From NCBI RefSeq assembly GCF_058153355.1, contig NZ_CM177019.1: a stretch of 64,000 bases of DNA; one strand, 5' to 3'. Numbering within the stretch: the stretch's first letter is position 1; each line of letters begins with the position of its first letter. The position numbers were made by a program, and so were the translations under genes. The notes beneath the pieces are model-generated. The model saw only the letters and a program-made list of their open reading frames with translations. It was not told the origin of the DNA and made no database searches. Shown one piece after another: positions 3,190 to 20,218 of this stretch.

Positions 3190-3945
3190 TTATGAAGCTG
3201 CTCCTCTATTAATACTCTTTATCTGATGAGCAATATTTTTATATGAACGATGATTAGCCGAGTTCATTACATCATGGATATAAGGAAAATGAGGTAAGGA
3301 TGAGATGAACCGCTCACCCGCAGTGAGATGGCAGATGTCATCTCTGCGCACAAAACTCTCTGTGGTTAACTTCACCTGGATGATGCTGGCTACTGGAATA
3401 ACCCTGATTATTTCGGCCTGACAGGCAACTAAATACCATTTTCCTTCCGTGTGAATAAGACGATAAGGTTCAAAGACCGCGTGAGAATCATTGCCAGTCA
3501 GCAAATGAATACAGTTTTGTTGACAGATCGCCTGTATCAGCCGCTGAAAACATTCTGATGATACAACCGAGTCAGAATGCGATGAAGACCAGATAAGGCA
3601 GGGAGAATACGACGTTTCACCCGTGAGGTAATGCATCAACCTGCGATCAGGTGACGGAAATAATTGAGAGATTCCGGTGTTACGCATAAACGCCAGAACA
3701 TCTAATGAACTGTCTGTAAAGCGTTTCCCGTCAAGTCGCCAGCGCCCATTCTCACTAACGATATTAAGGTGGAGTAATCGCTGGTGGAAATCTCGCTGTA
3801 GCGTTCGTTCAGATACTCCAAACTCTTCTGCCAGGTTTTTTAGGTCAAGAGACTCTCCTGACAGTAACCGGCTAATAATCTGTGTCAGCCTGATGGCAAA
3901 CCGGTCATAACGAGTCGATGTAGTGTTCATCAGAAAAACGTCCAT
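3190..3945 (-). CDS. WYL-domain transcriptional regulator (YfjR/BrxR-like); start codon uncertain (ORF extends to 4068)
   Basis: motif EPYRLIHTEGKWYLVACQ (WYL signature) plus N-terminal HTH-like region LKNLAEEFGVSERTLQRD. Confidence 0.55.
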   Translation of the reverse strand: MDVFLMNTTSTRYDRFAIRLTQIISRLLSGESLDLKNLAEEFGVSERTLQRDFHQRLLHLNIVSENGRWRLDGKRFTDSSLDVLAFMRNTGISQLFPSPDRRLMHYLTGETSYSPCLIWSSSHSDSVVSSECFQRLIQAICQQNCIHLLTGNDSHAVFEPYRLIHTEGKWYLVACQAEIIRVIPVASIIQVKLTTESFVRRDDICHLTAGERFISSLPHFPYIHDVMNSANHRSYKNIAHQIKSINRGAAS

Positions 3946-4166
3946 GGATAACTTACTGTTTTTAATGATGTTATTATGAATCATGAGCACGACAGGATAT
4001 GTCGTAGTAACGGGAGGAATAGAGAAAAAACGTCCAGACAAATAACTAAGTAATATCCTGATTAACAATAACTATTTTTTCCAGAGACAGAACTGAAGCA
4101 GGTCGCGACATATCCTGTCGCTGAAACTCATAATTTTCAGGTGGCTTAACTCAGTGGGTAGATGTA

Positions 4167-5051
4167 TTAGAAAAACCAGTGCCATATTGCGGTAGCTGCA
4201 TTCTCCAGCCCTTCTCTGAGCACTCCCAACCCGTTGCGTATCATGTTGGGGAGAGGTATGGCCTCCAGAATCCTGCTCAATAATTCTCCCAACAAATCCG
4301 CGAAATCCTTTCGGGCCTTCGTCTCCGATTCTTTGGTGCGATGTTCTTTCCTGATCTGGCGAAAGACGCCACTGGTAGCCTCTGGTGGCAGGGCAAAAAT
4401 CATTGTTTCAACTATACGAGACATGTTGTAACCGGTTTTTGCTGAAACAGCATGCACCGGGTAAGGGGTAAAGAACTGGCGGGAAACGGCAGCACTTCTC
4501 GCTGTGAGCGTCATGAGTTGCTTCACTGAAGGAGATCCTTTTTCACGATCCCATTCCAGTGATGGCTCGGCTTTGTCAGCCTGGTTGATAACAAAAACAA
4601 TGCTGTCTGTCGATACGCCACAATCCAGTAGAAAACGGTGGAATTCTTCGTCTGTGGTACAGGCGCGGTCATCGGCTTTCATCACCCAGAGAATGAGATC
4701 CAGCTTCGGTAACTGTTCCTGATACATCTGGCGATATATCTCATCATGCTTCAGCGATTCACCTGCGCCCGGCAGATCGATCAGCGTCAGGCTGCGTCCT
4801 CCAGCGTTCAGGGTAAAATGCAAAGGTTTACGTGTGCAGCCTTCTGCATGGCTGACTGGGCTGAGAGGATGTTCAAAAAGAGCATTGCAAAGCGAGGATT
4901 TTCCGGCACCTGTTTTGCCCATGATGCCAATCACGGGTTCGTAATGAATACTCTGGCGTATATGCTCCAGAACCAAATCGGAGATATGTTCAGGAAGAAT
5001 GGATAAAGGTTGCTTCAGGACATTAATGCCCCGTTCAAAGGAATCAGACAT
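4167..5051 (-). CDS. YfjP/YkfA-family GTPase (P-loop GTP-binding protein)
   Basis: G1 motif GKTGAGKSS, DLPG (G3-like) and NQADK (G4 NKxD-like); GGAGG RBS upstream of the ATG at 5051; ORF extends to 5105. Confidence 0.6.
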   Translation of the reverse strand: MSDSFERGINVLKQPLSILPEHISDLVLEHIRQSIHYEPVIGIMGKTGAGKSSLCNALFEHPLSPVSHAEGCTRKPLHFTLNAGGRSLTLIDLPGAGESLKHDEIYRQMYQEQLPKLDLILWVMKADDRACTTDEEFHRFLLDCGVSTDSIVFVINQADKAEPSLEWDREKGSPSVKQLMTLTARSAAVSRQFFTPYPVHAVSAKTGYNMSRIVETMIFALPPEATSGVFRQIRKEHRTKESETKARKDFADLLGELLSRILEAIPLPNMIRNGLGVLREGLENAATAIWHWFF

Positions 5052-5215
5052 GTAGCCTCCGGAATGAAAAAATTCGATACAGCAACTTCGCTGCAATGTA
5101 TTCATTGCGGTAATACAGGTCTGTTTTTTTTTGCATTCGAATTACGGGGAGGAATGTGGTTTTGTGGAGCAAACCGGGGGCATTGCCCCGGTTCACTGAT
5201 ATGGTGAAATGATAT

Positions 5216-5455
5216 CTAACGTCGCATTACCCATTCATTCAGTTCTGACTCCAGCCAGCCAACGGATTGCCTTCCCAAGCGTTTTTGTTTTGGAAATGTT
5301 CCATCGTAGCGTGGCGATTTTGGATTAAGCCAGTCGTATATGGTTGAGCGTGAAATTCCCATTTTTTTCATTACATCTTTTAGCCTCAAGATCCTCGGTG
5401 AATCAGGAATATTTGCGTAACTGGATGTATGTAAGGAGGGAGGGTTCTGTAACAT
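5216..5455 (-). CDS. alpA: AlpA-family phage regulatory protein (HTH)
   Basis: 79-aa ORF; ISRSTIYDWLNPKSPRYDGTFPK matches the AlpA signature of P4/CP4-57-type elements. Confidence 0.65.
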   Translation of the reverse strand: MLQNPPSLHTSSYANIPDSPRILRLKDVMKKMGISRSTIYDWLNPKSPRYDGTFPKQKRLGRQSVGWLESELNEWVMRR

Positions 5456-5568: not shown

Positions 5569-6450
5569 ATGAAGGATGTGGGTGCGAATTTTTTTGATGA
5601 TTTCTATCTGCAAGTTTGTACCGCTTGTGAGGACAAACTTCTTGAGCTGGAATGGAAACTTGAAGTCGAAAAAAAGGAGAGCAACCAAGATGTTCTGCGC
5701 ACTTACAGGCAAAGAGCCTATGATAAAATTGAAGAATTTAAAATTATTGAGTATTCAAAAATACAATGTCAATATTTTGTAGATATGACTAATAGCGACA
5801 ATATACGCTACTCACAAGAGTTTATAAATGTTGATGGAATAATGGTTGAGAAACCTTTTATTTATAAGGAAACATATGCAGAATATCGGATTGAAATTCG
5901 AGGAAAAATGGACGGGTATAAACTGACAGGATTAGCAAGACTATATGATGCACATTATGAATATATATATCTATCTATGGCTTTAGAAGATTTTTACTGG
6001 GCGCAGTTCCAATATTCATTGGGCAATAAAAAAGAAAGTTGTAAGTTTCTTCTTGATGCTTATTCTTATATGAATGTCTGTATTTCGCGAGATGATAACC
6101 GAGACTCACCGAGTTTTCATCGATTAAGAAGTGGTTTTGATAAAGTATGCAGAAGAGCGCGCTCAAGCGCTGGAGGGAAAAATAAACTTGCAGAACTTGA
6201 ATATATTAAAGATACAGTTGTTATCTTACTTGAAGATATTCCTTCACATAGCGACTGGAAAAATAAACGTCAACTTCTTGAATATTTAATGCCCTATATT
6301 TGTAATAATGATAAAAAGGTCAATCCAGATAAATGGATAAATGATACAGGCGATAGAGAGGAAACTATCCGCCGCAGACTTAATAAATGGTTTACAGGTG
6401 ATCTAAAAGTAGAGATTGATAAAGTCCTAAAGAACAATACTAACAATTAA
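5569..6450 (+). CDS. hypothetical protein, AT-rich orphan
   Basis: 293-aa ORF, strongly AT-rich codon usage, transcribed divergently from alpA; no recognisable motif. Confidence 0.5.
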   Translation: MKDVGANFFDDFYLQVCTACEDKLLELEWKLEVEKKESNQDVLRTYRQRAYDKIEEFKIIEYSKIQCQYFVDMTNSDNIRYSQEFINVDGIMVEKPFIYKETYAEYRIEIRGKMDGYKLTGLARLYDAHYEYIYLSMALEDFYWAQFQYSLGNKKESCKFLLDAYSYMNVCISRDDNRDSPSFHRLRSGFDKVCRRARSSAGGKNKLAELEYIKDTVVILLEDIPSHSDWKNKRQLLEYLMPYICNNDKKVNPDKWINDTGDREETIRRRLNKWFTGDLKVEIDKVLKNNTNN

Positions 6451-6681
6451 TATTATTATGGTTTTGATATTTTTATGTCTATCAGGAGGGCTACTATACG
6501 ATCAGTCTTGATGGGTTTGAAATTACATCGCTATGAAAATACCCCACATAAATCTATTGGAAAACCAATCATTGTTAATATGACTATTGTTATGATGACT
6601 GTTGTAATTGTGTCTACACGAGAAATTGAATGAAATTTATAGGTTTGAAGTAGCCTTAGTGGTAGTCGAAAATAATTATGT

Positions 6682-6713
6682 AAATGGGCCTGCATTTTGC
6701 AAGAAGGCCCATT
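6682..6713. terminator. hairpin between convergent genes (aaatgggcc ... ggcccattt)
   Basis: 9-bp inverted repeat read directly. Confidence 0.3.
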
Positions 6714-6717
6714 TACG

Positions 6718-7047
6718 TCAGGGGTAAATTATATATCCCATAATCGCACAGATTAACCGGTAATCACTCACGTAGAAGATTTCCGGATTCTCAGTGCTTT
6801 GTTCACCGATAAAGAAGACTTGAGCTCTCTCTTTAGCTTTTTTATTTACTGCTTCTTTTGCTTCTTCCTGCACAGTTTCAAGCTCATTCAAAAGCATAGT
6901 CTTTTTGGCTTTTGACCAGTCTCCCCACTCAATGTGTAGTTTATAGCTACGCGAGGGCTTAAACTTACCAGATTCGTCTTTTGCCCATTCTCCCGAGAGC
7001 GGAATGACAATTCGGTTTTCGTCTTGCTCAAATTTCTGCCATAACAA
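6718..7047 (-). CDS. hypothetical protein (109 aa)
   Basis: ORF co-directional with and downstream of the STAND gene; no motif recognised. Confidence 0.4.
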   Translation of the reverse strand: MLWQKFEQDENRIVIPLSGEWAKDESGKFKPSRSYKLHIEWGDWSKAKKTMLLNELETVQEEAKEAVNKKAKERAQVFFIGEQSTENPEIFYVSDYRLICAIMGYIIYP

Positions 7048-7094
7048 CTGCGAATAAAAAACTCGGCGCTCAGGGTAGGGTTGAACCGGGTCTT

Positions 7095-7628
7095 TTAGTT
7101 TTTTAACACGGTCATGTAAGTATCGGCATTAATACCTGGGATAATTAATGACATACCACGGTCATACGGGAAGCGAATAAATGCCCTACAAATCTGGCGA
7201 ATAGCATTAACCGGGCGGCGGGATTGCCGCGCTGGAGCATTTCCCTCGCTGGATGCCGATGTTGTAGAACGTATTGGATTGGGTTTGTTGTTGTTACCAG
7301 TAGTGTCAGGATCAACAACGGGTCGATTTTCAATCAGTTTTAATCCTGCAGGCATCAAACCTGGTGCGCTATCTAACATGCGGCGGACGCTTTTCTTCTG
7401 CCCCTGTTTAACCACTGTGCTTTCTGCATCAGCATCGCAATTAATGTGCTCTTTTCCAGGCATTTTATTAAACGAAGGTCTTTTCTTACTTCCTTTTTGC
7501 CAAGCAGAAGGATACATCTCAATCCCACATCCCCAGCATACGTAACTGTTCGTATCTACAACATCAAGTAACCAAAGATCTTCTGCCTCAATAATCTCAC
7601 TGGTATATTTATCACGTGCAGATTCCAT
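7095..7628 (-). CDS. hypothetical protein (177 aa) with a CxxC motif
   Basis: good RBS (aaaggagaaatc then ATG); starts 45 bp after the STAND gene stop; contains C-W-G-C. Confidence 0.5.
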   Translation of the reverse strand: MESARDKYTSEIIEAEDLWLLDVVDTNSYVCWGCGIEMYPSAWQKGSKKRPSFNKMPGKEHINCDADAESTVVKQGQKKSVRRMLDSAPGLMPAGLKLIENRPVVDPDTTGNNNKPNPIRSTTSASSEGNAPARQSRRPVNAIRQICRAFIRFPYDRGMSLIIPGINADTYMTVLKN

Positions 7629-7673
7629 GATTTCTCCTTTAAACAGAATTCCTGTGAAGGCGGCTACTAGCCT

Positions 7674-10600
7674 TCATTCAAACCGTTGTTCCAATGCCTC
7701 ATCTTCCAATCGCTCGCGTTCTTTTTCCTTTTCAACCCAGTTAGTCAGTTTTTTATAAACAGCTCTAGCCGACTTAGAAATGTCTGCACGCTCGTGGGTG
7801 ACCAACCGGCCTATCGCTTCAACCCTGGGTTGCATCACGTTCGCACGACTACCGGACCATGATGAAGGTGCTACGTGTTCGGCAAAGATCTCAAGGACGG
7901 CTCGTGGCTCGGGTGAGGCTTCTAGAAATCTCAGAGCATCATCCTGCAAGCAAATAGGACTTTGCTCCCCGTCTTTTGACCATAGATTAATACCTGAAGC
8001 GACTGAAGCCCAAACCTGAGGGTCTTTAGTGGTCCCGCACCATTCAATCAAAATATCTACATCGATTTTCGCAATAGGAGACTGATGTGAATCATCATGA
8101 TTGATGAAATGCAGCCGCCTCTGTTGTTGATCCTCCGTACCATCAAAAATGCGACTGAGAAATTCTTTTGGCATCCATGCAGCGGTGATACCGATAGCGT
8201 CTTCGAAAGAAAAAATGTAGCCAAAATGCTCATCAACAACAGCAAAGATTGTATTCAGCCATTCTAGCTTTTCAGCCTCGTTGCCATCGAAGCGCAATGT
8301 GGCATCGATAACACGTTCCATTGCATAATCCAGATATCCGCCGAGATCGTTGTGATCTCTTTGGAACCTCTGGATTGCAGCGGATAGTCCAATTGTTCGT
8401 AGCGCAAGACCTAGTGTATCCGTAGCATCTCCTTTATCAGGTAGTTTCATACTCAATGCTTCCAATACTACTTCATCACCATTCGGTTTACTCAGCAGCC
8501 TTTGAGCAAGCTCGAGAACCCTGCTTTCTGGCAAATTAGAGAATTGCTCACCCCACAGAATTGCCCCATACATATGGGGCCGTATGTCAGAGTCATCCAG
8601 AAGCGACATGCAACGATCCAGATCGATTTCAGTAAACTCCTGCCAAGGATGTAGGTTGACTAATTCGAATCGAAGTTCGGAATGTTGTGCGCACTGATCG
8701 AGCAGTTCCTGCGCTAATGCTTTATCGATAGAATTCGTCTCTTCTATGAAACCTCGAATAACAGAAAAATCACTTTGAGATTTATGCTGTAGATTCATTT
8801 GAGTGATAAGTTTCTGCCAATAAACTCGTAGGTCAGGTGCTCCTTTAGCTAAGCCTTTACCGAATTCGACGCGATAGGGCATCCCATCTCGTAAGAATAA
8901 ATTAGGGCCTAACTCATCAAGTTCATGCGTGGATACTGCAAAGTCTTGCCCTAACTGGAACGCTTTTGCGTTAAGTATTTCCTTTATTTTTATGAATTTG
9001 TTAGGCCCCTCACGCTCAAAATCGGCATTCAGCGCCCAAAAATCACGCCCCTTACTGAGTACATAAGCCATAACTGCCGGAACCAAGTCATTAGGCTCCA
9101 ATTCTCGTTCCAATGTCACAAGTCCTTCCGGCAAAGGAGCTAAATCTTCGTTGTCATTTCTTTTGGTATGGGAAAAGTAAATTGTTGAGCGGACCGCTTT
9201 CCAGCCTTCACCCCAAGGACGATGGGCATGTAATTTGCGAGCCGCATCAATTAATTTTGACCTCATTCCTTCCTGACGCCAAATCCAGCGAAATTTATTA
9301 GCTAAGATCAGCCGAGCATCATCTTCAAGTTCGGGAACTCTTGAAGTTGCTAATCTCACCACAATGTCGATGAAGGTGATTAGCCACTCAACAAGCTCAT
9401 CGTAGCTGGGTCGAAATCCATAATCTCTTGGCCGAGCACCAAACTCATTAATCCCGAATCCTGTCCACGGTGGTCCGCCGAGAGCAGTTTCAAGCATTTC
9501 GAGCCCCAGCCTTCTACGTCCGGCCATACTTGAACCAATGCATTCATCCATGACCGCAACACGTTGTTCTAAAGAGGCATGGGTACCGGATAGATAAGGT
9601 TGGAAAAACCTCTTTATCTTATTTCGAGCCGAATCATAATTATTGCTCGCGCTTTCCTGATCTGCGATACGGATTAAGAGCTTAATGCATCGTTCAAAGT
9701 ATTTCGATTCATATGCAAGTAACTGCAACAATTTGATAATTGCTGTTCGTTGTGGGTTGTAGCGTGATTTAAAATGCTCAAAATTAGACGTAACAAGTGT
9801 TTCTTCAATCCGCTCAAGCAAAGCTCCCGGGGCGACTGGAGCGACATAATTCAGAATGCGTGTCGAAACATCATCTAGGTCTATTATTTTTCCAAGCAGC
9901 CCTTCGGGCTGTAACCAAGCTTCAACAATCTCTTTAGCCACAGCATGGCTGTGCAATAGTCCCAACCTGTGCGCGAACGACATCAATAATCGTTGTCGAT
10001 CCGGAGCTTCAAAGGTCGTCCTAAGTTGATCAATCGGAATACTATTAAGTGCAGATGCTGCCAACTTGTTAGCAATGGCATGGGGAAGGATGGCTCTCCA
10101 GTGGGATCTTTTCTGAACAACGTGACGTTCCATCAACTTCGTAACAGTTTTGAATAACTGGATTTTGGGATACCCAGAGAGCGCACCCAATATTTCCAGT
10201 TCATCGGTAGCTGCATCTGAACTAGATATTGAGAACGAATACACCAGTGACAATATTTCAGCTTGCTCCCGTAAATGGCCGTCGGGATGATTACGTTGTT
10301 CAAACAAGCGATTAAACAACTGCGCATCTGAAAGTAGGGCTAAACTCTCACCTTCCTCCACTCTTTCCGCTATAGCCAAAGCCACTCTTGCATTCCCATC
10401 TGCGAACTTTGCAATCCGACGGGCATTATTCTGACCAATAGAAGGGAAGCGACGGATAAGAAGTTGCTCTGCCACCTCTGGACCATCTGTCTCAATGTGG
10501 ATGACCTCAGTTGTCTGTGGTTTGTCATCCCTAATGTCGTACTCGATCGTGATGAGACTTACTTCTTTCCCTGCGGCTGATACTTTGCTGGCAAGCGAAG

Positions 10601-11525
10601 CATGGAGTTCTGATGGGCAATTATCAAGGATCATAATTGCTCGTCGGCCTTCAGCGAGCAGGTTATCAAGCATTGCTGTAGCCGACGGTACTGGCTCATA
10701 GCCAGTATCAACATAAATAGCTACTGTCCGGTCAAGCGCATCTGTTCCAACAGTATCATCAAAGAGCGCCTGAACGATTCGAGTCTTCCCAACACCAGAC
10801 AATCCTGTAATACGAACAGCCTTATTCGTCGAACGGATCAGTGCTCGCATTGGGTTAATTGCTTCATCAATTTTGAGTTTTTGCCCCTTTCCCGATGGTA
10901 AAGTAATGGTTACGCTTGGGGCTGAGATTAAAGTGTCTGTAACACCTTGTGGTGGATTGCTCCAGGCTCCGTAGGGTTGCCAACCGGAATACCCTTGCCC
11001 AAGCTTTGCTTTTACCCACAGCATGACTGATGGATGTTGGCGCAACCATTGGATGAGTTTGGAGCGGTCGTAGAAATCAAGATGAAGATAACTTTCGTTA
11101 GGATCATCTTTTACTGCATCTCTCATCGCTTTGAGACGATTCTTCTTTCCTGACGGCGAGCAATCATCACCCAGGCTGACAATGATGTAACTGCCTTGCT
11201 TTCTGGCTTGTTCAGAAATGATGGGAGAAAGTGCTTTTCCGGTGCCAATTTCCCTCTCGATTGCAGCCTTAGGCATCTTATGTTTCTTTGCCTGAAAGAC
11301 CGTATCAGGTCTTACAAGAAAGCCTGCTTTCAGTTGATCAACTGGAACCTGAACATGGATGTCAATTCCTCCGTCAGGGGCTGTAATTGAACCAGACCAA
11401 TTTACACATGCTGGGCTATGGCCGTGCATTGCCACTTCAGCTTCTGCTAGCCGAGCGATCAGCTCTTCCAACTGGATATCGGAGAGCCGAAGTAATTCGT
11501 CCTTTTCAATGTCAAAGATTGCCAC
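7674..11525 (-). CDS. Mrr-like (PD-(D/E)xK) nuclease / STAND P-loop NTPase / long helical C-terminal domain protein; Avs-like antiphage candidate
   Basis: 1283-aa ORF; N-terminal DGGID (residues 51-55) ... QAK (78-80) resembles the Mrr catalytic core; Walker A GLSGVGKT encoded at 10782..10805; Walker B-like AIMILDN; GNARVALAIA resembles the GxP motif of STAND NTPases. Confidence 0.7.
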   Translation of the reverse strand: MAIFDIEKDELLRLSDIQLEELIARLAEAEVAMHGHSPACVNWSGSITAPDGGIDIHVQVPVDQLKAGFLVRPDTVFQAKKHKMPKAAIEREIGTGKALSPIISEQARKQGSYIIVSLGDDCSPSGKKNRLKAMRDAVKDDPNESYLHLDFYDRSKLIQWLRQHPSVMLWVKAKLGQGYSGWQPYGAWSNPPQGVTDTLISAPSVTITLPSGKGQKLKIDEAINPMRALIRSTNKAVRITGLSGVGKTRIVQALFDDTVGTDALDRTVAIYVDTGYEPVPSATAMLDNLLAEGRRAIMILDNCPSELHASLASKVSAAGKEVSLITIEYDIRDDKPQTTEVIHIETDGPEVAEQLLIRRFPSIGQNNARRIAKFADGNARVALAIAERVEEGESLALLSDAQLFNRLFEQRNHPDGHLREQAEILSLVYSFSISSSDAATDELEILGALSGYPKIQLFKTVTKLMERHVVQKRSHWRAILPHAIANKLAASALNSIPIDQLRTTFEAPDRQRLLMSFAHRLGLLHSHAVAKEIVEAWLQPEGLLGKIIDLDDVSTRILNYVAPVAPGALLERIEETLVTSNFEHFKSRYNPQRTAIIKLLQLLAYESKYFERCIKLLIRIADQESASNNYDSARNKIKRFFQPYLSGTHASLEQRVAVMDECIGSSMAGRRRLGLEMLETALGGPPWTGFGINEFGARPRDYGFRPSYDELVEWLITFIDIVVRLATSRVPELEDDARLILANKFRWIWRQEGMRSKLIDAARKLHAHRPWGEGWKAVRSTIYFSHTKRNDNEDLAPLPEGLVTLERELEPNDLVPAVMAYVLSKGRDFWALNADFEREGPNKFIKIKEILNAKAFQLGQDFAVSTHELDELGPNLFLRDGMPYRVEFGKGLAKGAPDLRVYWQKLITQMNLQHKSQSDFSVIRGFIEETNSIDKALAQELLDQCAQHSELRFELVNLHPWQEFTEIDLDRCMSLLDDSDIRPHMYGAILWGEQFSNLPESRVLELAQRLLSKPNGDEVVLEALSMKLPDKGDATDTLGLALRTIGLSAAIQRFQRDHNDLGGYLDYAMERVIDATLRFDGNEAEKLEWLNTIFAVVDEHFGYIFSFEDAIGITAAWMPKEFLSRIFDGTEDQQQRRLHFINHDDSHQSPIAKIDVDILIEWCGTTKDPQVWASVASGINLWSKDGEQSPICLQDDALRFLEASPEPRAVLEIFAEHVAPSSWSGSRANVMQPRVEAIGRLVTHERADISKSARAVYKKLTNWVEKEKERERLEDEALEQRFE

Positions 11526-12238: not shown

Positions 12239-14248
12239 ATGGTTGAAAGTAAGGTTTCTCGTGCGGATGAGGTGCAGGGGAATGAGGTTTGGTATTATGA
12301 GCATGGAGGTTCGAGTGTAGCAAGGAATTTTATTGTCGAGTTGTATGAGGAGGAGGTAAGAAGTAGATTAAAAAACGATGCAAATTTCTACAACAGAAGA
12401 AAAAAAACATGCACAGTTCCGATTACTAGCGCTGTTATTTTTTGTAAAAATAATAATAGTGAGATAGACAATTTCTATCAAGAGTATGCTGATTATGAAA
12501 GTTCAGCTATTGAATATGGCGAGATTGAGAATTGGTTAGATAGCGTTGAAGAAGGGTTCAATTGCGATTCTAAAGTTCTGGGGCGAATTTTTTCATTGTT
12601 AGAGGGGACGTTTATATATGAAAATAAAAAAATTCTCGATGAAGAACCACCCCTTAACACTGTGAATGATTATATCAAAAAATCTCTAAATATAACATTT
12701 AATCAAGATCACTCACAACGTATTGCTTCAATGCAACTAACCCCGGGCCCTCAGAGAATTCGTGGCTTGGCCGGAACAGGTAAGACGATAGTTCTTTCAT
12801 TAAAAGCTGCGATAACGCACAAAAAATTTCCAGATTATAAAATATTATATTTATTTAATACACAAAGCTTATATCAAAATGTGCAGAGTTCAATCGCCAG
12901 ATACTATACTTTAGAAGCCAAAAAAGCGCCAGATTTTGAATCGAATCTAAATGTCTTCCATGCGTGGGGTGGTAGGCAGAAACCGGGACTGTATTCATAT
13001 ATTTGCCAACAGTATGGATTAACTCCACTAACATTAGGAGATGTACGTGGAGCAAGTGATGCCTTAGCTGTCATATATGCAGAACTTCTCAAAAAAATCG
13101 GTGGTGATATAAAGCCTGAATATGATCTTATTTTAATAGATGAAGCCCAAGATTTTCCTAAAGAGTTGTTTGAAGTGGTCTTTAAACTAGCAAAGGGCAA
13201 ACCTCATGAGAAAAGGATCGTTTGGGCGTATGATGAATTCCAGTCATTGAAAGACACTCAAATTAAAGGTCCATCTGAGCTATTTGGTTTGGCCAAAGAT
13301 GGCACCCCAAATATGAGTGATGATGTTTTAGATGGATTCTATCCTGGTGACATAAAAAAAGATATTGTTTTATCCAATTGCTATAGGACTCCTCGTCCTG
13401 CTCTTATGACTGCTCACGGAGTAGCATTAGGACTTTATACTAATAAGCCGAATGAAATGTTTTATAACCATGATGAATGGAAAGCTATTGGCTATAAAGT
13501 TTTAAATCCTCAGACAAAAATCATTGCAAAAGGCAATGATGTGCAAATAGAGAGACCTAATGAAAATAGTCTAAATCTGTTGGAAGGAATTATGACAGAG
13601 CAGGGTAAGAGGGCCCTTAACCTTATCCAGACTAAGGTGGAAAATGATCGGGAAAGTCAATATGAATATATTGCAAGTAACATCAAACGTTTAATTGATG
13701 AGGAAAATGTCTCGCCTGAAGAAATAGTCATAATTAATTTGAAGTCCTCTAGTAACAAAGATGAGATGCTACGCATTCAATTCATCTTAAATAATTACGG
13801 TATTCACTCTGTAATTCCCGGTTACGTTGAAAGCTCAGATGTCTTTAAACCCAAGGGGTTCGTTACAATCACAACCCCTTTCAGGGCTAAAGGGAATGAA
13901 GCTAATATTGTATTTATTTTAAATAGCCAGTTAGTTGTTAATGATTTTTCATTAAGGATGCGTAATGCATTTTTTGTAGCAGTAACTCGAACAAGAGGAT
14001 GGTGTTATATTGTTGGTTATGGAGAAAAAATGCAAATGCTTGTGGACGAAATTTCAGGAATCAAAAGAGATTTCCCTATATTTAATTTCATTTGTCCTGA
14101 CCCTGATGATGTCAAAGCACGAAAAAGTTATCTCCACAAATCAGACTCTGAGATCAATGAGATGCAAAGAGTACTGGATTTAGTTAATAATAACGAAGAG
14201 TTAAGACGACTGCTACAGGAGCAGCTCATTGATAAGAAAGGAGATTAA
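12239..14248 (+). CDS. SF1 helicase (UvrD/RecD-like), probable C-terminal body of a nuclease-helicase fusion
   Basis: 669-aa ORF; Walker A GLAGTGKT at 12764..12787; Walker B LILIDEAQDF; FVAVTRTRGW motif VI-like. Confidence 0.7.
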   Translation: MVESKVSRADEVQGNEVWYYEHGGSSVARNFIVELYEEEVRSRLKNDANFYNRRKKTCTVPITSAVIFCKNNNSEIDNFYQEYADYESSAIEYGEIENWLDSVEEGFNCDSKVLGRIFSLLEGTFIYENKKILDEEPPLNTVNDYIKKSLNITFNQDHSQRIASMQLTPGPQRIRGLAGTGKTIVLSLKAAITHKKFPDYKILYLFNTQSLYQNVQSSIARYYTLEAKKAPDFESNLNVFHAWGGRQKPGLYSYICQQYGLTPLTLGDVRGASDALAVIYAELLKKIGGDIKPEYDLILIDEAQDFPKELFEVVFKLAKGKPHEKRIVWAYDEFQSLKDTQIKGPSELFGLAKDGTPNMSDDVLDGFYPGDIKKDIVLSNCYRTPRPALMTAHGVALGLYTNKPNEMFYNHDEWKAIGYKVLNPQTKIIAKGNDVQIERPNENSLNLLEGIMTEQGKRALNLIQTKVENDRESQYEYIASNIKRLIDEENVSPEEIVIINLKSSSNKDEMLRIQFILNNYGIHSVIPGYVESSDVFKPKGFVTITTPFRAKGNEANIVFILNSQLVVNDFSLRMRNAFFVAVTRTRGWCYIVGYGEKMQMLVDEISGIKRDFPIFNFICPDPDDVKARKSYLHKSDSEINEMQRVLDLVNNNEELRRLLQEQLIDKKGD

Positions 14249-14250
14249 AA

Positions 14251-14922
14251 TTGAATTTCTCATTAGTGCAGCAAAGCTTAAACCATGTCGAAGCACTTTT
14301 AAAACCTGTAACTCAACAAAAATTAATAGAGTTTAAAGAAAGAGAGAAGGTCATAAGTTGGACAAATAGGAAGCCAGGAATTTACAATGAAGTCTACTAT
14401 CCTATTGAATATCAATGTGTAATTGATGCAAGGCAGTACTCATTATTGCTTCGAGATGGCGATTTTTTTCAATTTTTTTATGAGTTTGATGCGAAAACTG
14501 GCAATCTGAAGAAAGCTAAGTTGGCTTTCTATCCCTCACCAATTGATTGTAGAAATTCGTTGGATGATCTCAATGAAGCAGCTGAATTTGCTTTTGATCA
14601 TAATGAAGAACTCTATAATCATCTTGATAATTGGATTTCGCTATTGGAAATAAAAAACTATTTTCCAGCAAATACATCTCAAGTTAGATTTGATTATGAT
14701 AGTACGGTTACTACACATGAGAAAGCACATCTGCAGTTTAGTAGTGTAAATAAACTTAGACTTCCGGCTGACTTTTTTCCTTTGCCATATGCATTTGTAT
14801 TAATGGTTTCTGATCTTATTAATGGATGCTCAAAGGTAGATGCTAGACATATAAGCTTTACTAAGAGAAACAGCCTAAGATCAAATGTTTCTAATAGAAT
14901 CATAACCTTGAAATCACAGTGA
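14251..14922 (+). CDS. hypothetical protein, helicase-coupled partner (223 aa)
   Basis: TTG start 3 bp after the helicase stop, AGGAG RBS 7 nt upstream; AT-rich; no motif recognised. Confidence 0.5.
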   Translation: MNFSLVQQSLNHVEALLKPVTQQKLIEFKEREKVISWTNRKPGIYNEVYYPIEYQCVIDARQYSLLLRDGDFFQFFYEFDAKTGNLKKAKLAFYPSPIDCRNSLDDLNEAAEFAFDHNEELYNHLDNWISLLEIKNYFPANTSQVRFDYDSTVTTHEKAHLQFSSVNKLRLPADFFPLPYAFVLMVSDLINGCSKVDARHISFTKRNSLRSNVSNRIITLKSQ

Positions 14923-15372: not shown

Positions 15373-16614
15373 TCACCCAACTAGCTTCATTCCTTTTATC
15401 CCACCTTCAATCATGCTTCCACGATCCGCTGCCATCACAAAATTTGCCCACCATTGCATCATCGGGCGACGCTGTTCCAGGTAATCGCTGCGGTTATAAG
15501 CACGACGAACCTCATTCTTATCCACATGGGCCAATGCTGCCTCAATGACATCAGGCGGAAAGCCTTGTTCATTAAGAGCCGTACTGGCAATTGATCTCAG
15601 ACCATGCGAAACAAGCACACCACCAAAACCTGCGCGTTTTAGTGAGGCGTTAACAGTCTGACTGTTCATTGGCTGGTTGGGCTTGATACGGCTGGGAAAG
15701 ATAAATTCTCGGTTGCCGCTTAGCGGTTTCATCATCTCCAGCACAGCTATTGCTTCATCTGACAATGGAACAGTATGATCGCGGTTCATTTTCATGCGTG
15801 CTGCAGGAATCTTCCACTCTCGCGCTTCTATGTCTACCTCTTCCCAGCGAGCTTCAGCCGCTTCGGCAGGGCGGGTAATAGTAAGAAGTTGCCACATGAA
15901 CAGGCAGCGTGTGGAAAGGCTAATGCTGGCTGTTCGCATTGTCTGCATCAATTGAGGTAGCTGATCCGGTCGAATGCTGGGCATGTTCTTTTTCTGAGGC
16001 TTCTCGAAGGCTTTACCGATATTAACGCTGGGAACAGCATCAATCAGCCCTGTGTTTTGGGCATAGATCATGACCTCATTAATGCGCTGACACAGGCGAC
16101 GAACGGTTTCCAGTGCTCCTCTGGCCTGAACTGGTTGGACGGCCTGAACCAGTGTGTGTGCTTTAATATCTGTAACGCTAATGTCGCCAATTGCAGGAAA
16201 GACATCTCTCTCAAGAGAGCGCCAGATATCCTCTGCGTAGTCTTCGGTCACACTGGCTTTCTTCACATTCCACCAACGTTCAGCCACGAGCTGGAAAGTA
16301 TTGGTTTTAGCTTCCAGCGAACTGCGAAGTTGTTCTTGTTGATGTTCCTGGGGATCAATTTGTTTCGCCAGAAGAGAGCGGGACTCTGCCCGATAGTTTC
16401 GGGCATCGGCAAGGGTAACTGACGGGTAGGGGCCTATGCTCTTCTTCGCACGTTTCTTAGTGACAGGGCGAATGTAGCGAAACTGCCAGATTTTACTTCC
16501 GCTGGATTTGATGAGTAGCTCAAGGCCATCACCATCATAGAGAACGTAGTCCGCTTCTTTGGGTTTGGCGGATTCGATTTCTTTAACGGATAGAGGTTTG
16601 GTTTGTCTTGCCAT
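15373..16614 (-). CDS. intA: P4-type tyrosine integrase (IntA-like) next to ssrA
   Basis: 413-aa ORF; C-terminal catalytic region with HGLRS ... EAALAH ... RAY pattern; position immediately 5' of the tmRNA 3' end. Confidence 0.85.
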   Translation of the reverse strand: MARQTKPLSVKEIESAKPKEADYVLYDGDGLELLIKSSGSKIWQFRYIRPVTKKRAKKSIGPYPSVTLADARNYRAESRSLLAKQIDPQEHQQEQLRSSLEAKTNTFQLVAERWWNVKKASVTEDYAEDIWRSLERDVFPAIGDISVTDIKAHTLVQAVQPVQARGALETVRRLCQRINEVMIYAQNTGLIDAVPSVNIGKAFEKPQKKNMPSIRPDQLPQLMQTMRTASISLSTRCLFMWQLLTITRPAEAAEARWEEVDIEAREWKIPAARMKMNRDHTVPLSDEAIAVLEMMKPLSGNREFIFPSRIKPNQPMNSQTVNASLKRAGFGGVLVSHGLRSIASTALNEQGFPPDVIEAALAHVDKNEVRRAYNRSDYLEQRRPMMQWWANFVMAADRGSMIEGGIKGMKLVG

Positions 16615-16818
16615 TGCCGGGTTTCCATAGTTTTAGGCACCTCAAAAACAATAAAGCTTTATGAGGTGCCTAACAAGGTGCCTAAAAGGTTCGGATTTAA
16701 TTAGTTCTCTTCGGACTTCGCGGGACAAATTGAGGGCACAAAAAAGCCCGCAGGGCTTGCGCCGTGCGGACTCTTAGGACTTCATCGGATGACTCTGGTA
16801 ATCACCGATGGAGAATTT

Positions 16819-17181
16819 TGGTGGAGCTGGCGGGAGTTGAACCCGCGTCCGAAATTCCTACATCCTCGGTACTACATGCTTAGTCAGTCTTTACATTCGC
16901 TTGCCAGCTGCGGACGGACACGCCACTAACAAACTAGCCTGATTAAGTTTTAACGCTTCAACCCCAGGCAGGGCTTCCACGCGATCTCTTTTGGGTTTGA
17001 CCTCTCTTGATCCCCGTCCTAAGAGCGGAGGCTAGGGAGAGAGGGCTCTAAGCAGGTTATTAAGCTGCTAAAGCGTAGTTTTCGTCGTTTGCGACTATTT
17101 TTTGCGGCTTTTTACGAGGCCAACCGCCCCTCGGCATGCACCTTGGGTTTCGCAAATCCCGTCGAATCCAGAATCAGCCCC
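16819..17181 (-). ncRNA. ssrA: tmRNA (SsrA)
   Basis: reverse complement begins GGGGCTGATTCTGGATTCGACGGG and ends ...GTTCAACTCCCGCCAGCTCCACCA; tag-encoding region present. Confidence 0.92.
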
Positions 17182-18792: not shown

Positions 18793-20218
18793 TAATGCCG
18801 ATCAGTTAAGGATCAGTTGACCGATCCAGTGGCTGTGTAAGAATCCGGAAACGCTCACTTGTTTCCGGATTTTTTTATGCACATTGGACAGGCTCTTGAT
18901 CTGGTATCCCGTTACGATTCTCTGCGTAACCCACTGACTTCTCTGGGGGATTACCTCGACCCCGAACTCATCTCTCGTTGCCTTGCCGAATCAGGTACTG
19001 TAACGCTACGCAAGCGCCGTCTTCCCCTCGAAATGATGGTCTGGTGTATTGTTGGCATGGCGCTTGAGCGTAAAGAACCTCTTCACCAGATTGTGAATCG
19101 CCTGGACATCATGCTGCCGGGCAATCGCCCCTTCGTTGCCCCCAGTGCCGTTATTCAGGCCCGCCAGCGCCTGGGAAGTGAGGCTGTCCGCCGCGTGTTC
19201 ACGAAAACAGCGCAGCTCTGGCATAACGCCACGCCGCATCCGCACTGGTGCGGCCTGACCCTGCTGGCCATCGATGGTGTGTTCTGGCGCACACCGGATA
19301 CACCAGAGAACGATGCAGCCTTCCCCCGCCAGACACATGCCGGGAACCCGGCGCTCTACCCGCAGGTCAAAATGGTCTGCCAGATGGAACTGACCAGCCA
19401 TCTGCTGACGGCTGCAGCCTTCGGCACGATGAAGAACAGCGAAAATGAGCTTGCTGAGCAACTTATAGAACAAACCGGCGATAACACTCTGACGTTAATG
19501 GATAAAGGTTATTACTCACTGGGACTGTTAAATGCCTGGAGCCTGGCGGGAGAACACCGCCACTGGATGATACCTCTCAGAAAGGGAGCGCAATATGAAG
19601 AGATCAGAAAACTGGGTAAAGGCGATCATCTGGTGAAGCTGAAAACCAGCCCGCAGGCACGAAAAAAGTGGCCGGGACTGGGAAATGAAGTGACAGCCCG
19701 CCTGCTGACCGTGACGCGCAAAGGAAAAGTCTGCCATCTGCTGACGTCGATGACGGACGCCATGCGCTTCCCCGGAGGAGAAATGGCGGATCTGTACAGT
19801 CATCGCTGGGAAATCGAACTGGGATACAGGGAGATAAAACAGACGATGCAACTGAGCAGGCTGACGCTGAGAAGTAAAAAGCCGGAGCTTGTGGAGCAAG
19901 AGCTGTGGGGTGTCTTACTGGCTTATAATCTGGTGAGATATCAGATGATTAAAATGGCGGAACATCTGAAAGGTTACTGGCCGAATCAACTGAGTTTCTC
20001 AGAATCATGCGGAATGGTGATGAGAATGCTGATGACATTGCAGGGCGCTTCACCGGGACGTATACCGGAGCTGATGCGCGATCTTGCAAGTATGGGACAA
20101 CTTGTGAAATTACCGACAGGAAGGGAAAGGGCCTTCCCGAGAGTGGTAAAGGAGAGGCCCTGGAAATACCCCACAGCCCCGAAAAAGAGCCAGTCAGTTG
20201 CTTAACTGACTGGCATTA
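18793..20218 (+). mobile_element. insertion sequence IS4, complete (1426 bp)
   Basis: terminal inverted repeats taatgccgatcagttaag (left) and cttaactgactggcatta (right); encodes full-length transposase. Confidence 0.88.
18877..20205 (+). CDS. insG: IS4 transposase InsG
   Basis: 442-aa product from ATG at 18877 ([14 protein letters not shown]...). Confidence 0.88.

What the first reader, a model, noticed from the sequence alone, without database searches (positions are those of the whole stretch)
6718..7628. Two small orphan genes co-transcribed downstream of the STAND gene
Seen: a 177-aa ORF with a strong RBS starts 45 bp after the STAND gene stop and contains a C-W-G-C motif and a basic, low-complexity C-terminal half. 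A 109-aa ORF follows in the same orientation, and a hairpin at 6682..6713 closes the unit. Inference: these may be accessory components of the STAND system, or an independent small module. I recognise neither.
Basis: inference. Interest (0 to 1): 0.5.

Follow-up and report, generated by a model that had tools for sequence, protein, structure and literature searches.

The report
Frameshift-split avs8B gene, not two genes
The two "orphan" ORFs are the two halves of one known gene, the B component of the E. coli anti-phage system PD-lambda-4/Avs8, broken here by a one-base deletion; the finding is ordinary, but this gene family also sits beside many unrelated defence systems.

Summary
The ORFs, RBS, C-W-G-C motif and hairpin are all present at the stated coordinates. 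They are one gene, not two. PADLOC places the 177-aa ORF on positions 1-176 and the 109-aa ORF on positions 195-303 of the single 303-position model PD-Lambda-4_B. The upstream 1283-aa gene is a full-length PD-Lambda-4_A (Avs8A, a published capsid-sensing Mrr-nuclease/STAND protein). Alignment with an intact E. coli copy shows one deleted T (GTG TTT AAA AAA to GTG TTA AAA AAC TAA, window 7098-7109).

The ancestral B protein is about 303 aa and conserved end to end across Enterobacterales and Pseudomonas. It has a CxxC...HxxC zinc ribbon, a disordered linker and a C-terminal OB-like fold. The deletion removes the whole OB domain.

Most E. coli carry a different frameshift (+A, 248 aa). That truncated allele is the "Avs8B" reported as dispensable for lambda defence.

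B is not Avs8-specific. In 22 of 28 usable species-level loci it lies next to other systems or genes (Lamassu, Avs1, Qat, CBASS, R-M) instead.

Verdict: a known gene, probably a pseudogene here. B's own function remains unknown; it is probably an autonomous nucleic-acid-binding gene carried in defence islands.

The parts
7674..11525 (-). avs8A (PD-Lambda-4_A): an intact 1283-aa Mrr-like nuclease / STAND P-loop NTPase / sensor protein
   Evidence: It matches the PADLOC model PDLC03991 over positions 1-1283 of 1283, E = 0. A Walker A motif, GLSGVGKT, is at residues 241-248. It is 94-98% identical to the copies in E. coli, Superficieibacter and Intestinirhabdus. Its published function is reported.
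7634..7638 (-). Shine-Dalgarno sequence AGGAG of avs8B, 5 nt upstream of the ATG
   Evidence: Read directly from the sequence.
7095..7628 (-). 5' fragment of avs8B (177-aa ORF): zinc ribbon (C31, C34, H61, C64), a disordered linker and the first helix. It ends at a premature TAA created by the frameshift.
   Evidence: It matches PADLOC PD-Lambda-4_B positions 1-176 of 303, E 5e-113. See also alignments A1 and A2 and the AF2 model.
7098..7109 (-). Frameshift site. GTGTTAAAAAAC stands where intact copies have GTGTTTAAAAAAC, so one T is lost from a T3 run. This creates an in-frame A_AAA_AAC followed by TAA.
   Evidence: DNA alignment with the intact E. coli FEX669 CDS. Inserting one T in silico restores a 303-aa protein that is 96% identical to the FEX669 protein.
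6718..7104 (-). 3' portion of avs8B, shifted out of frame (one base short) with respect to the ATG of the gene. The listed 109-aa TTG ORF at 6718..7047 is its longest start-codon-delimited part. It encodes the whole OB-fold-like domain.
6680..6716 (-). Stem-loop directly after the avs8B stop codon, probably the operon terminator
   Evidence: RNA fold: dG -20.9 kcal/mol, z -4.9. It is conserved in the E. coli copies.

Best explanation
Window 6718-11525 (- strand) is a PD-lambda-4/Avs8 anti-phage operon on an island integrated at ssrA in an E. coli chromosome.

avs8A is intact. The two small ORFs are one gene, avs8B, normally about 303 aa. A single-base deletion in a T-run at codon 175 splits it.

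Shown:
- the identity of both pieces;
- the position of the lesion;
- that the ancestral protein is one conserved polypeptide: zinc ribbon, disordered linker, OB-like fold.

Inferred:
- Translation from the strong RBS gives a 177-aa product without the OB domain.
- The 109-aa ORF (TTG start, no RBS) is not translated on its own.
- So avs8B is probably a recent pseudogene.

From the literature: Avs8A alone senses HK97-fold major capsid proteins and confers lambda defence. The operon should therefore still defend.

For B itself, I infer with low confidence a nucleic-acid-binding protein that acts on its own, or as a general-purpose accessory, in defence islands. I do not think it is a dedicated Avs8 subunit.
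For: - PADLOC: the 177-aa ORF matches profile positions 1-176, the 109-aa ORF positions 195-303, and A matches positions 1-1283.
- A 1-nt deletion separates this copy from the intact 912-nt CDS WP_097521137.1. In-silico repair gives 303 aa with 12 substitutions, all in residues 1-162.
- 44 homologues of 300-316 aa are conserved along the whole length, with invariant residues in both halves.
- The exact 177-aa product is on record from E. coli (HFG3511296.1) and is carried by 4 contigs found in the exact look-up, with the same 177 + 109 aa arrangement in the one shown.
- Avs8A is sufficient and Avs8B dispensable for lambda defence.
- B homologues lie beside Lamassu, Avs1, Qat, type II CBASS, type I/IV R-M, Iet and a BrxR-led locus. 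In Pseudomonas the arrangement is divergent, which implies B has its own promoter.
- Vassallo et al. Table S4 matches B to a separate Gao-2020 defence seed cluster.
Against: - No read-level data, so a homopolymer miscall cannot be fully excluded. The public contigs with the same allele could come from one clone.
- No expression data.
- The published dispensability test used accession WP_000443183.1. That is the 248-aa +A frameshift allele, so the role of intact B with Avs8A has not really been tested.
- The Avs8A-B pairing recurs in divergent lineages (A 72% identical, B 64-90% identical). This would fit a real functional link.
- Nucleic-acid binding is untested.
Confidence: 0.9

Rival explanations
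1. The frameshift is a sequencing or assembly error, and the organism has an intact 303-aa avs8B.
For: The lesion lies at a homopolymer junction (T3/A6), a classic error site. There is only one lesion, and the rest of the gene is undamaged.
Against: The identical 177-aa protein, followed by the same 109-aa ORF, is found in other public assemblies: NCBI HFG3511296.1 and Logan SRR31441161, among the 4 contigs carrying it. Runs of 3 T and 6 A are short for systematic errors.
Confidence: 0.06
2. These are two genuine, separately functional small genes.
For: Both ORFs are open. The first has a strong RBS. Split versions are common in E. coli annotation.
Against: Both map to one profile in consecutive order. 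Nearly all homologues outside this lineage are single proteins of about 303 aa. The second ORF has a TTG start and no RBS. The split points differ between alleles: residue 174 here, 243 in most E. coli, and IS or deletion breaks at 140, 193, 247 and 253 elsewhere. That is the pattern of decay, not of a conserved two-gene design.
Confidence: 0.03
3. Recoding rescues the gene: ribosomes slip -1 on the in-frame A_AAA_AAC just before the TAA and make a full-length 303-aa protein.
For: The deletion creates an in-frame X_XXZ_ZZN heptamer next to a stop codon. A_AAA_AAC is a proven -1 frameshift motif in an E. coli IS cluster with no known stimulator (PMC4066793).
Against: There is no stimulatory structure downstream (z -0.06). 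The arrangement is not conserved, because homologues are single ORFs. The slipped product would carry F175L at an invariant position and K177N. At best this is a low-level by-product.
Confidence: 0.04
4. On B's role: Avs8B is a dedicated Avs8 accessory subunit that tunes Avs8A (range, threshold or toxicity), and its loss here changes the system's behaviour.
For: B follows Avs8A with a 29-50 nt gap and no promoter-like site in several lineages, including pairs with 72% A identity. Vassallo et al. defined the system as two genes by co-occurrence. Only a truncated B has been tested for dispensability.
Against: Only 6 of 28 usable species-level loci have Avs8A nearby; the others have unrelated systems or none. 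B and A identities do not track each other: L006 has A 72% with B 90%, and L022 has A 72% with B 64%. No transposon hits fell in B in the trigger-toxicity selection. B is often broken beside Avs8A.
Confidence: 0.25

Closest known systems
PD-lambda-4 / Avs8 two-gene anti-phage system of E. coli (Vassallo et al. 2022, PMC9519451; renamed Avs8 in bioRxiv 10.1101/2025.07.02.662641)
   Same: Gene order, spacing and sequence are the same. A gives a full-length match, and B matches in two pieces. The locus is 96-97% identical in DNA to the one in 147 complete E. coli genomes, and it sits in the same kind of ssrA/CP4-57-like island.
   Different: B carries a rare 1-nt deletion, giving 177 aa plus a stranded 3' part. 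The intact form is 303 aa and the common E. coli allele is 248 aa. The Avs8A sensor segment at 8700-9500 is only 80-92% identical to the E. coli FEX669 copy.
Common E. coli avs8B allele WP_000443183.1 (ECOR07, O104:H4, strain 55989)
   Same: It is also a frameshift in a homopolymer run that destroys the OB-like domain. It is also annotated as two hypothetical proteins.
   Different: The lesion differs: +A in GCCAAAAAG, giving K243 followed by DYAFE and a stop. It is very common: at least 1000 contigs, and 54 of 60 sampled complete genomes show the 913-bp form. The window's allele is on only 2-4 contigs.
OB-fold nucleic-acid-binding domains (RPA, SSB, Cdc13/CST, AIM2 HIN, class IIb aaRS anticodon-binding domains)
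CoiA N-terminal / zinc_ribbon_11 zinc ribbons
   Same: Vassallo et al.'s HHsearch gives residues 1-66 a 93% probability match to PF06054 and PF11682. CxxC...HxxC is conserved across the family.
   Different: No CoiA nuclease domain follows. Plain Pfam hmmscan finds nothing, even at E <= 10.

Membership tests
PD-lambda-4 / Avs8 system | An Avs8A-type protein (Mrr-like nuclease N-terminus, STAND P-loop NTPase, C-terminal sensor), full length | tested here: met
   PADLOC PDLC03991 matches positions 1-1283 of 1283, E = 0. The Walker A motif GLSGVGKT is present. Pfam alone gives only weak AAA_16 and NPHP3_N hits. The domain assignment comes from the literature.
PD-lambda-4 / Avs8 system | A PD-Lambda-4_B homologue immediately downstream on the same strand | tested here: met
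   PDLC03992 matches at E 5e-113 and E 2e-62. The gap is 45 nt.
PD-lambda-4 / Avs8 system | B encoded as one intact ORF of about 303 aa | tested here: not met
   A 1-nt deletion at 7105-7106 leaves a 177-aa ORF and a stranded 3' part.
PD-lambda-4 / Avs8 system | Confers phage resistance and is triggered by the HK97-fold major capsid protein | not testable with these tools
   Published for the ECOR07 homologue only.
OB-fold nucleic-acid-binding proteins | A five-stranded beta-barrel with a helix between strands 3 and 4 | tested here: inconclusive
OB-fold nucleic-acid-binding proteins | Binds ssDNA, RNA or dsDNA | not testable with these tools
   Needs EMSA or a similar assay.
Zinc-ribbon domain | Four conserved metal ligands in two knuckles | tested here: met
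   C34, H61 and C64 are invariant and C31 is conserved in at least 90% of 44 sequences. The motif is kept in distant homologues. HHsearch hits are reported in PMC9519451 Table S3. Metal binding itself was not tested.
Programmed -1 ribosomal frameshift gene | A slippery heptamer in the zero frame | tested here: met
   A_AAA_AAC is in frame before the TAA.
Programmed -1 ribosomal frameshift gene | The frameshift arrangement is conserved among homologues, and/or there is a downstream stimulatory structure | tested here: not met
   Homologues are single ORFs. The downstream 80 nt fold no better than shuffles (z -0.06).

The most novel reading that the evidence does not exclude
'Avs8B' is misnamed. 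It would be an autonomous, widespread family (zinc ribbon, disordered linker, OB fold; 474 clusters at 50% identity, found by structure comparison in Proteobacteria, Actinobacteria and Bacteroidota). It travels as its own unit in defence islands and satellite-like integrative elements, next to Avs8A, Avs1, Lamassu, Qat, CBASS, R-M, Iet or BrxR-led loci. It would then have its own role, either in defence or in regulating neighbouring systems. That role has never been tested, because the only allele assayed so far (ECOR07, 248 aa) is itself a frameshift mutant. A further, weaker possibility is that its repeated inactivation beside Avs8A reflects selection rather than drift.
Probability: 0.35. 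Interest if true: 0.6.

Novelty: already known. Interest (0 to 1): 0.35.

Why it matters
For this window it settles the annotation. There is one disrupted gene of a named defence system, not two orphans, and the defence function should persist through the intact Avs8A.

More broadly, three points may be useful to people working on Avs8:
- The dominant E. coli allele of avs8B, including the one tested experimentally, is truncated. 'Dispensable' has therefore not been shown for the intact protein.
- The intact protein has a predicted zinc-ribbon plus OB-fold architecture that suggests nucleic-acid binding.
- The family is found beside many unrelated defence systems. It may be an independent or general-purpose component worth testing by itself.

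Tried and rejected
- **No family assignment for B.** Pfam, NCBIfam, PHROGs and a PDB sequence profile search all found nothing. Only the PADLOC model matches.
- **Recombination breakpoint inside B: rejected.** The 5' half of B is about 6% divergent from E. coli copies and the 3' half is nearly identical. However, a 200-nt identity profile shows the divergence confined to the disordered-linker codons, with a separate patch in the Avs8A sensor. Fast linker evolution explains it.
- **A universally co-occurring partner gene: none found.** Clustering all ORFs of 34 loci showed no family besides B present in more than 9 loci.
- **Programmed frameshifting: not supported**.
- **'B decays specifically next to Avs8A': kept only as a weak lead.** In the species-level sample, 4 of 6 linked copies are broken against 2 of 22 unlinked (Fisher p = 0.0096). 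But two further broken copies I looked up lie next to Qat and a BrxR-led locus, not Avs8A, and the test ignores phylogeny.
- **Longer homologues give no functional clue.** Their extra 100-220 residues are disordered tails ending in a short amphipathic helix, with no recognisable extra domain on inspection.

Full report
**1. Observation**

- a 177-aa ATG ORF at 7095..7628;
- a 109-aa TTG ORF at 6718..7047;
- a 1283-aa ORF at 7674..11525, whose TGA stop lies 45 nt before the 177-aa ORF's ATG;
- an AGGAG 5 nt upstream of that ATG;
- the motif V-C-W-G-C-G at residues 30-35.

The stem-loop after the second ORF (6680..6716) folds at -20.9 kcal/mol, z = -4.9 against shuffles. No promoter-like site falls in the 45-nt gap, which fits co-transcription. 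I have no expression data.

**2. What it is**

A scan against PADLOC-DB gave a clear answer:
- The 177-aa ORF matches positions 1-176 of the 303-position model PD-Lambda-4_B (E 5e-113).
- The 109-aa ORF matches positions 195-303 of the same model (E 2e-62).
- The upstream gene matches PD-Lambda-4_A over its full 1283 positions.

The three-frame translation shows the second ORF's frame is open right back to the end of the first ORF. The locus occurs in 147 of 5426 complete E. coli genomes at about 96-97% identity.

In strain FEX669 the B gene is one 912-nt CDS (WP_097521137.1, 303 aa). Aligning it with the window shows a single missing T: intact GTG TTT AAA AAA CTA becomes GTG TTA AAA AAC TAA at window 7098-7109. 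Re-inserting the T in silico gives a 303-aa protein that differs from FEX669 at 12 positions, all within residues 1-162, with no other lesion.

The finding is therefore one gene with one recent frameshift. The exact 177-aa product is on record from E. coli (HFG3511296.1). The look-up found 4 contigs carrying it, and the one shown has the same 177 + 109 aa arrangement. The allele is thus reproducible, though rare.

The window is an E. coli-type chromosome. Its core genes are 97-99% identical to E. coli. The operon sits on an island next to ssrA (tmRNA at 16819-17181) and an integrase (15373-16614).

**3. The ancestral gene**

A search of about 5.8 billion proteins returned 109 relatives. Nearly all were single proteins of 300-316 aa, from Citrobacter, Salmonella, Serratia, Klebsiella, Proteus, Photorhabdus, Rahnella, Xenorhabdus and Pseudomonas, at 91% down to 38% identity.

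An alignment of 44 of them is conserved from end to end. Invariant residues lie in both halves:
- zinc-ribbon ligands C34, H61 and C64, with C31 conserved in at least 90% of sequences;
- a strongly conserved R-R-x4-I-R-x-I-C-R-A-F-x2-F-P-x-D-R block;
- W197, G213, Y229, W238, E249, F272, F273, G275, Q277, F285, D289, R291 and C294.

AlphaFold2 on this alignment gives three parts:
- a small beta-rich N-terminal domain (residues 1-66);
- a confident C-terminal domain (142-303, pLDDT 73-91) with three strands, a long helix, then two to three strands.

No sequence library recognises the protein: Pfam, NCBIfam, PHROGs and the PDB sequence search all found nothing. Vassallo et al.'s own HHsearch table reports only the N-terminal 66 residues, as CoiA-N / zinc_ribbon_11 at about 93% probability.

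The window's frameshift at codon 175 cuts off the entire OB-like domain.

**4. What is known about the system**

PD-lambda-4 was recovered in a functional selection for lambda resistance and listed as 'ATPase, hypothetical'. It was later renamed Avs8. According to bioRxiv 10.1101/2025.07.02.662641:
- Avs8A is an Mrr-nuclease/STAND NTPase that binds HK97-fold major capsid proteins.
- Avs8A alone gives full lambda defence.

Capsid sensing was confirmed independently in bioRxiv 10.64898/2026.01.04.697583. With Avs8A intact here, the operon should still defend. This is an inference from the literature.

**5. A caveat about the published test**

The accession that paper gives for ECOR07 Avs8B is WP_000443183.1. 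In the E. coli GE3 record, that accession is the 747-nt CDS, which is followed by a separate 156-nt CDS.

The DNA alignment shows this allele has an extra A in GCCAAAAAG. The protein runs to K243 and then reads DYAFE-stop, so it lacks the OB helix and the last strands.

This 913-bp form accounts for 54 of 60 evenly sampled complete E. coli genomes. Its 248-aa product is on at least 1000 contigs, against tens of contigs for intact 303-aa forms. 'Avs8B is dispensable' has therefore been shown only for a truncated protein.

**6. Is B really an Avs8 component?**

I scanned one genome per species (GTDB representatives) for B homologues and obtained 29 loci. I then asked whether an Avs8A homologue lies within 10 kb. 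One locus, L034, is a 1.3-kb contig with too little flank to judge, which leaves 28 usable loci.

Six of the 28 have Avs8A nearby: L006, L012, L016, L018 and L022, plus a degraded copy in L017. The remaining 22 do not. Neighbours identified with PADLOC or Pfam, in these loci and in others I fetched by exact protein look-up, were:
- Lamassu LmuA/LmuB directly upstream (L007, L008, L020);
- Avs1a/Avs1b upstream (L010);
- QatABCD directly downstream (L007, L008, L009, L011, L043) or upstream (Salmonella L004/L005, E. coli L040, L014, L015);
- a type II CBASS operon in five Pseudomonas species (SAVED-HNH, cyclase, E1-E2, JAB), with a DEDDh exonuclease on the opposite strand between it and B, so B must have its own promoter there;
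- type I and type IV restriction systems (L019, L021, L031);
- IetA/IetS upstream of a distant homologue (L037);
- a BrxR-SNF2-DUF4391 locus (L044).

Other points bear on the same question:
- No other gene family co-occurs with B in more than 9 of 34 loci.
- B and A identities do not track each other: L006 pairs A at 72% with B at 90%, and L022 pairs A at 72% with B at 64%.
- The Avs8A-B pairing does recur in diverged lineages, for example Enterobacter hormaechei with A at 72% and B at 65%. A functional link therefore cannot be dismissed.
- A profile search of 1.84 billion representatives finds 474 clusters.
- A structure search against AFDB50 finds the same three-part architecture in Beta- and Gammaproteobacteria, Actinobacteria and Bacteroidota, all labelled 'uncharacterized'.
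- Vassallo et al. note that B matches its own defence-associated seed cluster from Gao et al. 2020.

My reading is that B is a cargo gene of defence islands that moves independently. It may act alone or with whichever system it lands beside.

**7. Decay of B**

Besides the two E. coli frameshifts, Avs8A-linked copies are broken in four other ways:
- an IS3 insertion at residue 193 (Pantoea, L016);
- an IS3 insertion at residue 253 (Photorhabdus khanii, L017);
- a deletion after residue 247 (Superficieibacter, L012);
- replacement after residue 140 (Intestinirhabdus, L018).

In the species-level sample, 4 of 6 linked copies are broken against 2 of 22 unlinked copies (Fisher p = 0.0096). However, two further broken copies I looked up sit next to Qat and a BrxR-led locus. 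The sample is small and not corrected for phylogeny. I treat 'preferential loss beside Avs8A' as a lead only.

**8. Rivals considered**

- **Sequencing error.** This is unlikely given other assemblies with the same allele. It is not excluded without reads.
- **Two real genes.** This is contradicted by the single-profile mapping, the single-ORF homologues, the missing RBS, and the different break points in different lineages.
- **Programmed -1 frameshifting.** The deletion does create an in-frame A_AAA_AAC before the stop, and that heptamer is a proven motif in an E. coli IS cluster (PMC4066793). But there is no downstream structure and no conservation of the arrangement. The slipped product would also carry F175L at an invariant position.

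**9. Verdict**

The gene is the known B component of PD-lambda-4/Avs8, so the finding itself is ordinary. The residual interest lies in B:
- its intact form has not been tested;
- it has a predicted zinc-ribbon plus OB-fold architecture;
- it keeps company with many different defence systems.

Noticed in passing
window 8700-9500 (- strand, inside avs8A, about residues 675-940): This stretch of the Avs8A sensor region is only 80-92% identical to the E. coli FEX669 copy, while the rest of the gene and its flanks are 96-100% identical. It is a local patch of diversification or recombination in the part expected to contact the capsid protein.
   Followed up: partly
window 12239-14248 and 14251-14922 (+ strand): A 669-aa helicase (PADLOC 'Helicase', E 2e-108) is followed by a 223-aa DUF2290 protein (E 2.5e-13). 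This is a second candidate defence pair in the same ssrA island, divergent from avs8A. NCBIfam gives only a sub-threshold STM2767-family helicase hit.
   Followed up: partly
window 5569-6450 (+ strand): A 293-aa ORF convergent with avs8B has no hit in PADLOC, NCBIfam or PHROGs. It is conserved at this position in E. coli islands that carry Avs8.
   Followed up: partly
window 15373-17181: A tmRNA gene (16819-17181, -) lies next to a 413-aa integrase ORF (15373-16614, -). This marks the boundary of a CP4-57-like island that also holds an AlpA-like HTH protein (5216-5455), a YfjP-like GTPase (4167-5105) and a WYL-domain protein (3190-4068).
   Followed up: partly
window 18859-20205 (+ strand): A 448-aa ORF lies under an 'IS4 family transposase' annotation in the best-matching E. 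coli records. Most E. coli genomes match this core region in two pieces without it, so it is an IS4 insertion near smpB/recN.
   Followed up: no
L002:6173-7085 (E. coli GE3); literature: The accession published for ECOR07 'Avs8B' (WP_000443183.1) is the 248-aa +A frameshift allele. The published dispensability result therefore concerns a truncated protein.
   Followed up: yes
L043:6001-6951 (Serratia marcescens AP021873.1): This is another independently split B homologue (201 aa + 84 aa). Here it lies directly upstream of QatABCD and an integrase, with no Avs8A.
   Followed up: partly
proteins P0164, P0170, P0173, P0182, P0198, P0223, P0230, P0266 (distant B homologues): These have 100-220 extra C-terminal residues that are low-complexity and end in a short basic amphipathic helix (for example ...WLRRVSGNK...FKNWLRQILQWLRS). 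This resembles a membrane-targeting tail. The window's protein lacks it.
   Followed up: no
L023, L024, L026, L027, L030 (Pseudomonas spp.), about 5 kb upstream of the B homologue: A conserved block of type II CBASS (SAVED-HNH, cyclase, E1-E2, JAB) plus an oppositely oriented DEDDh exonuclease sits immediately next to the B homologue in five species.
   Followed up: partly
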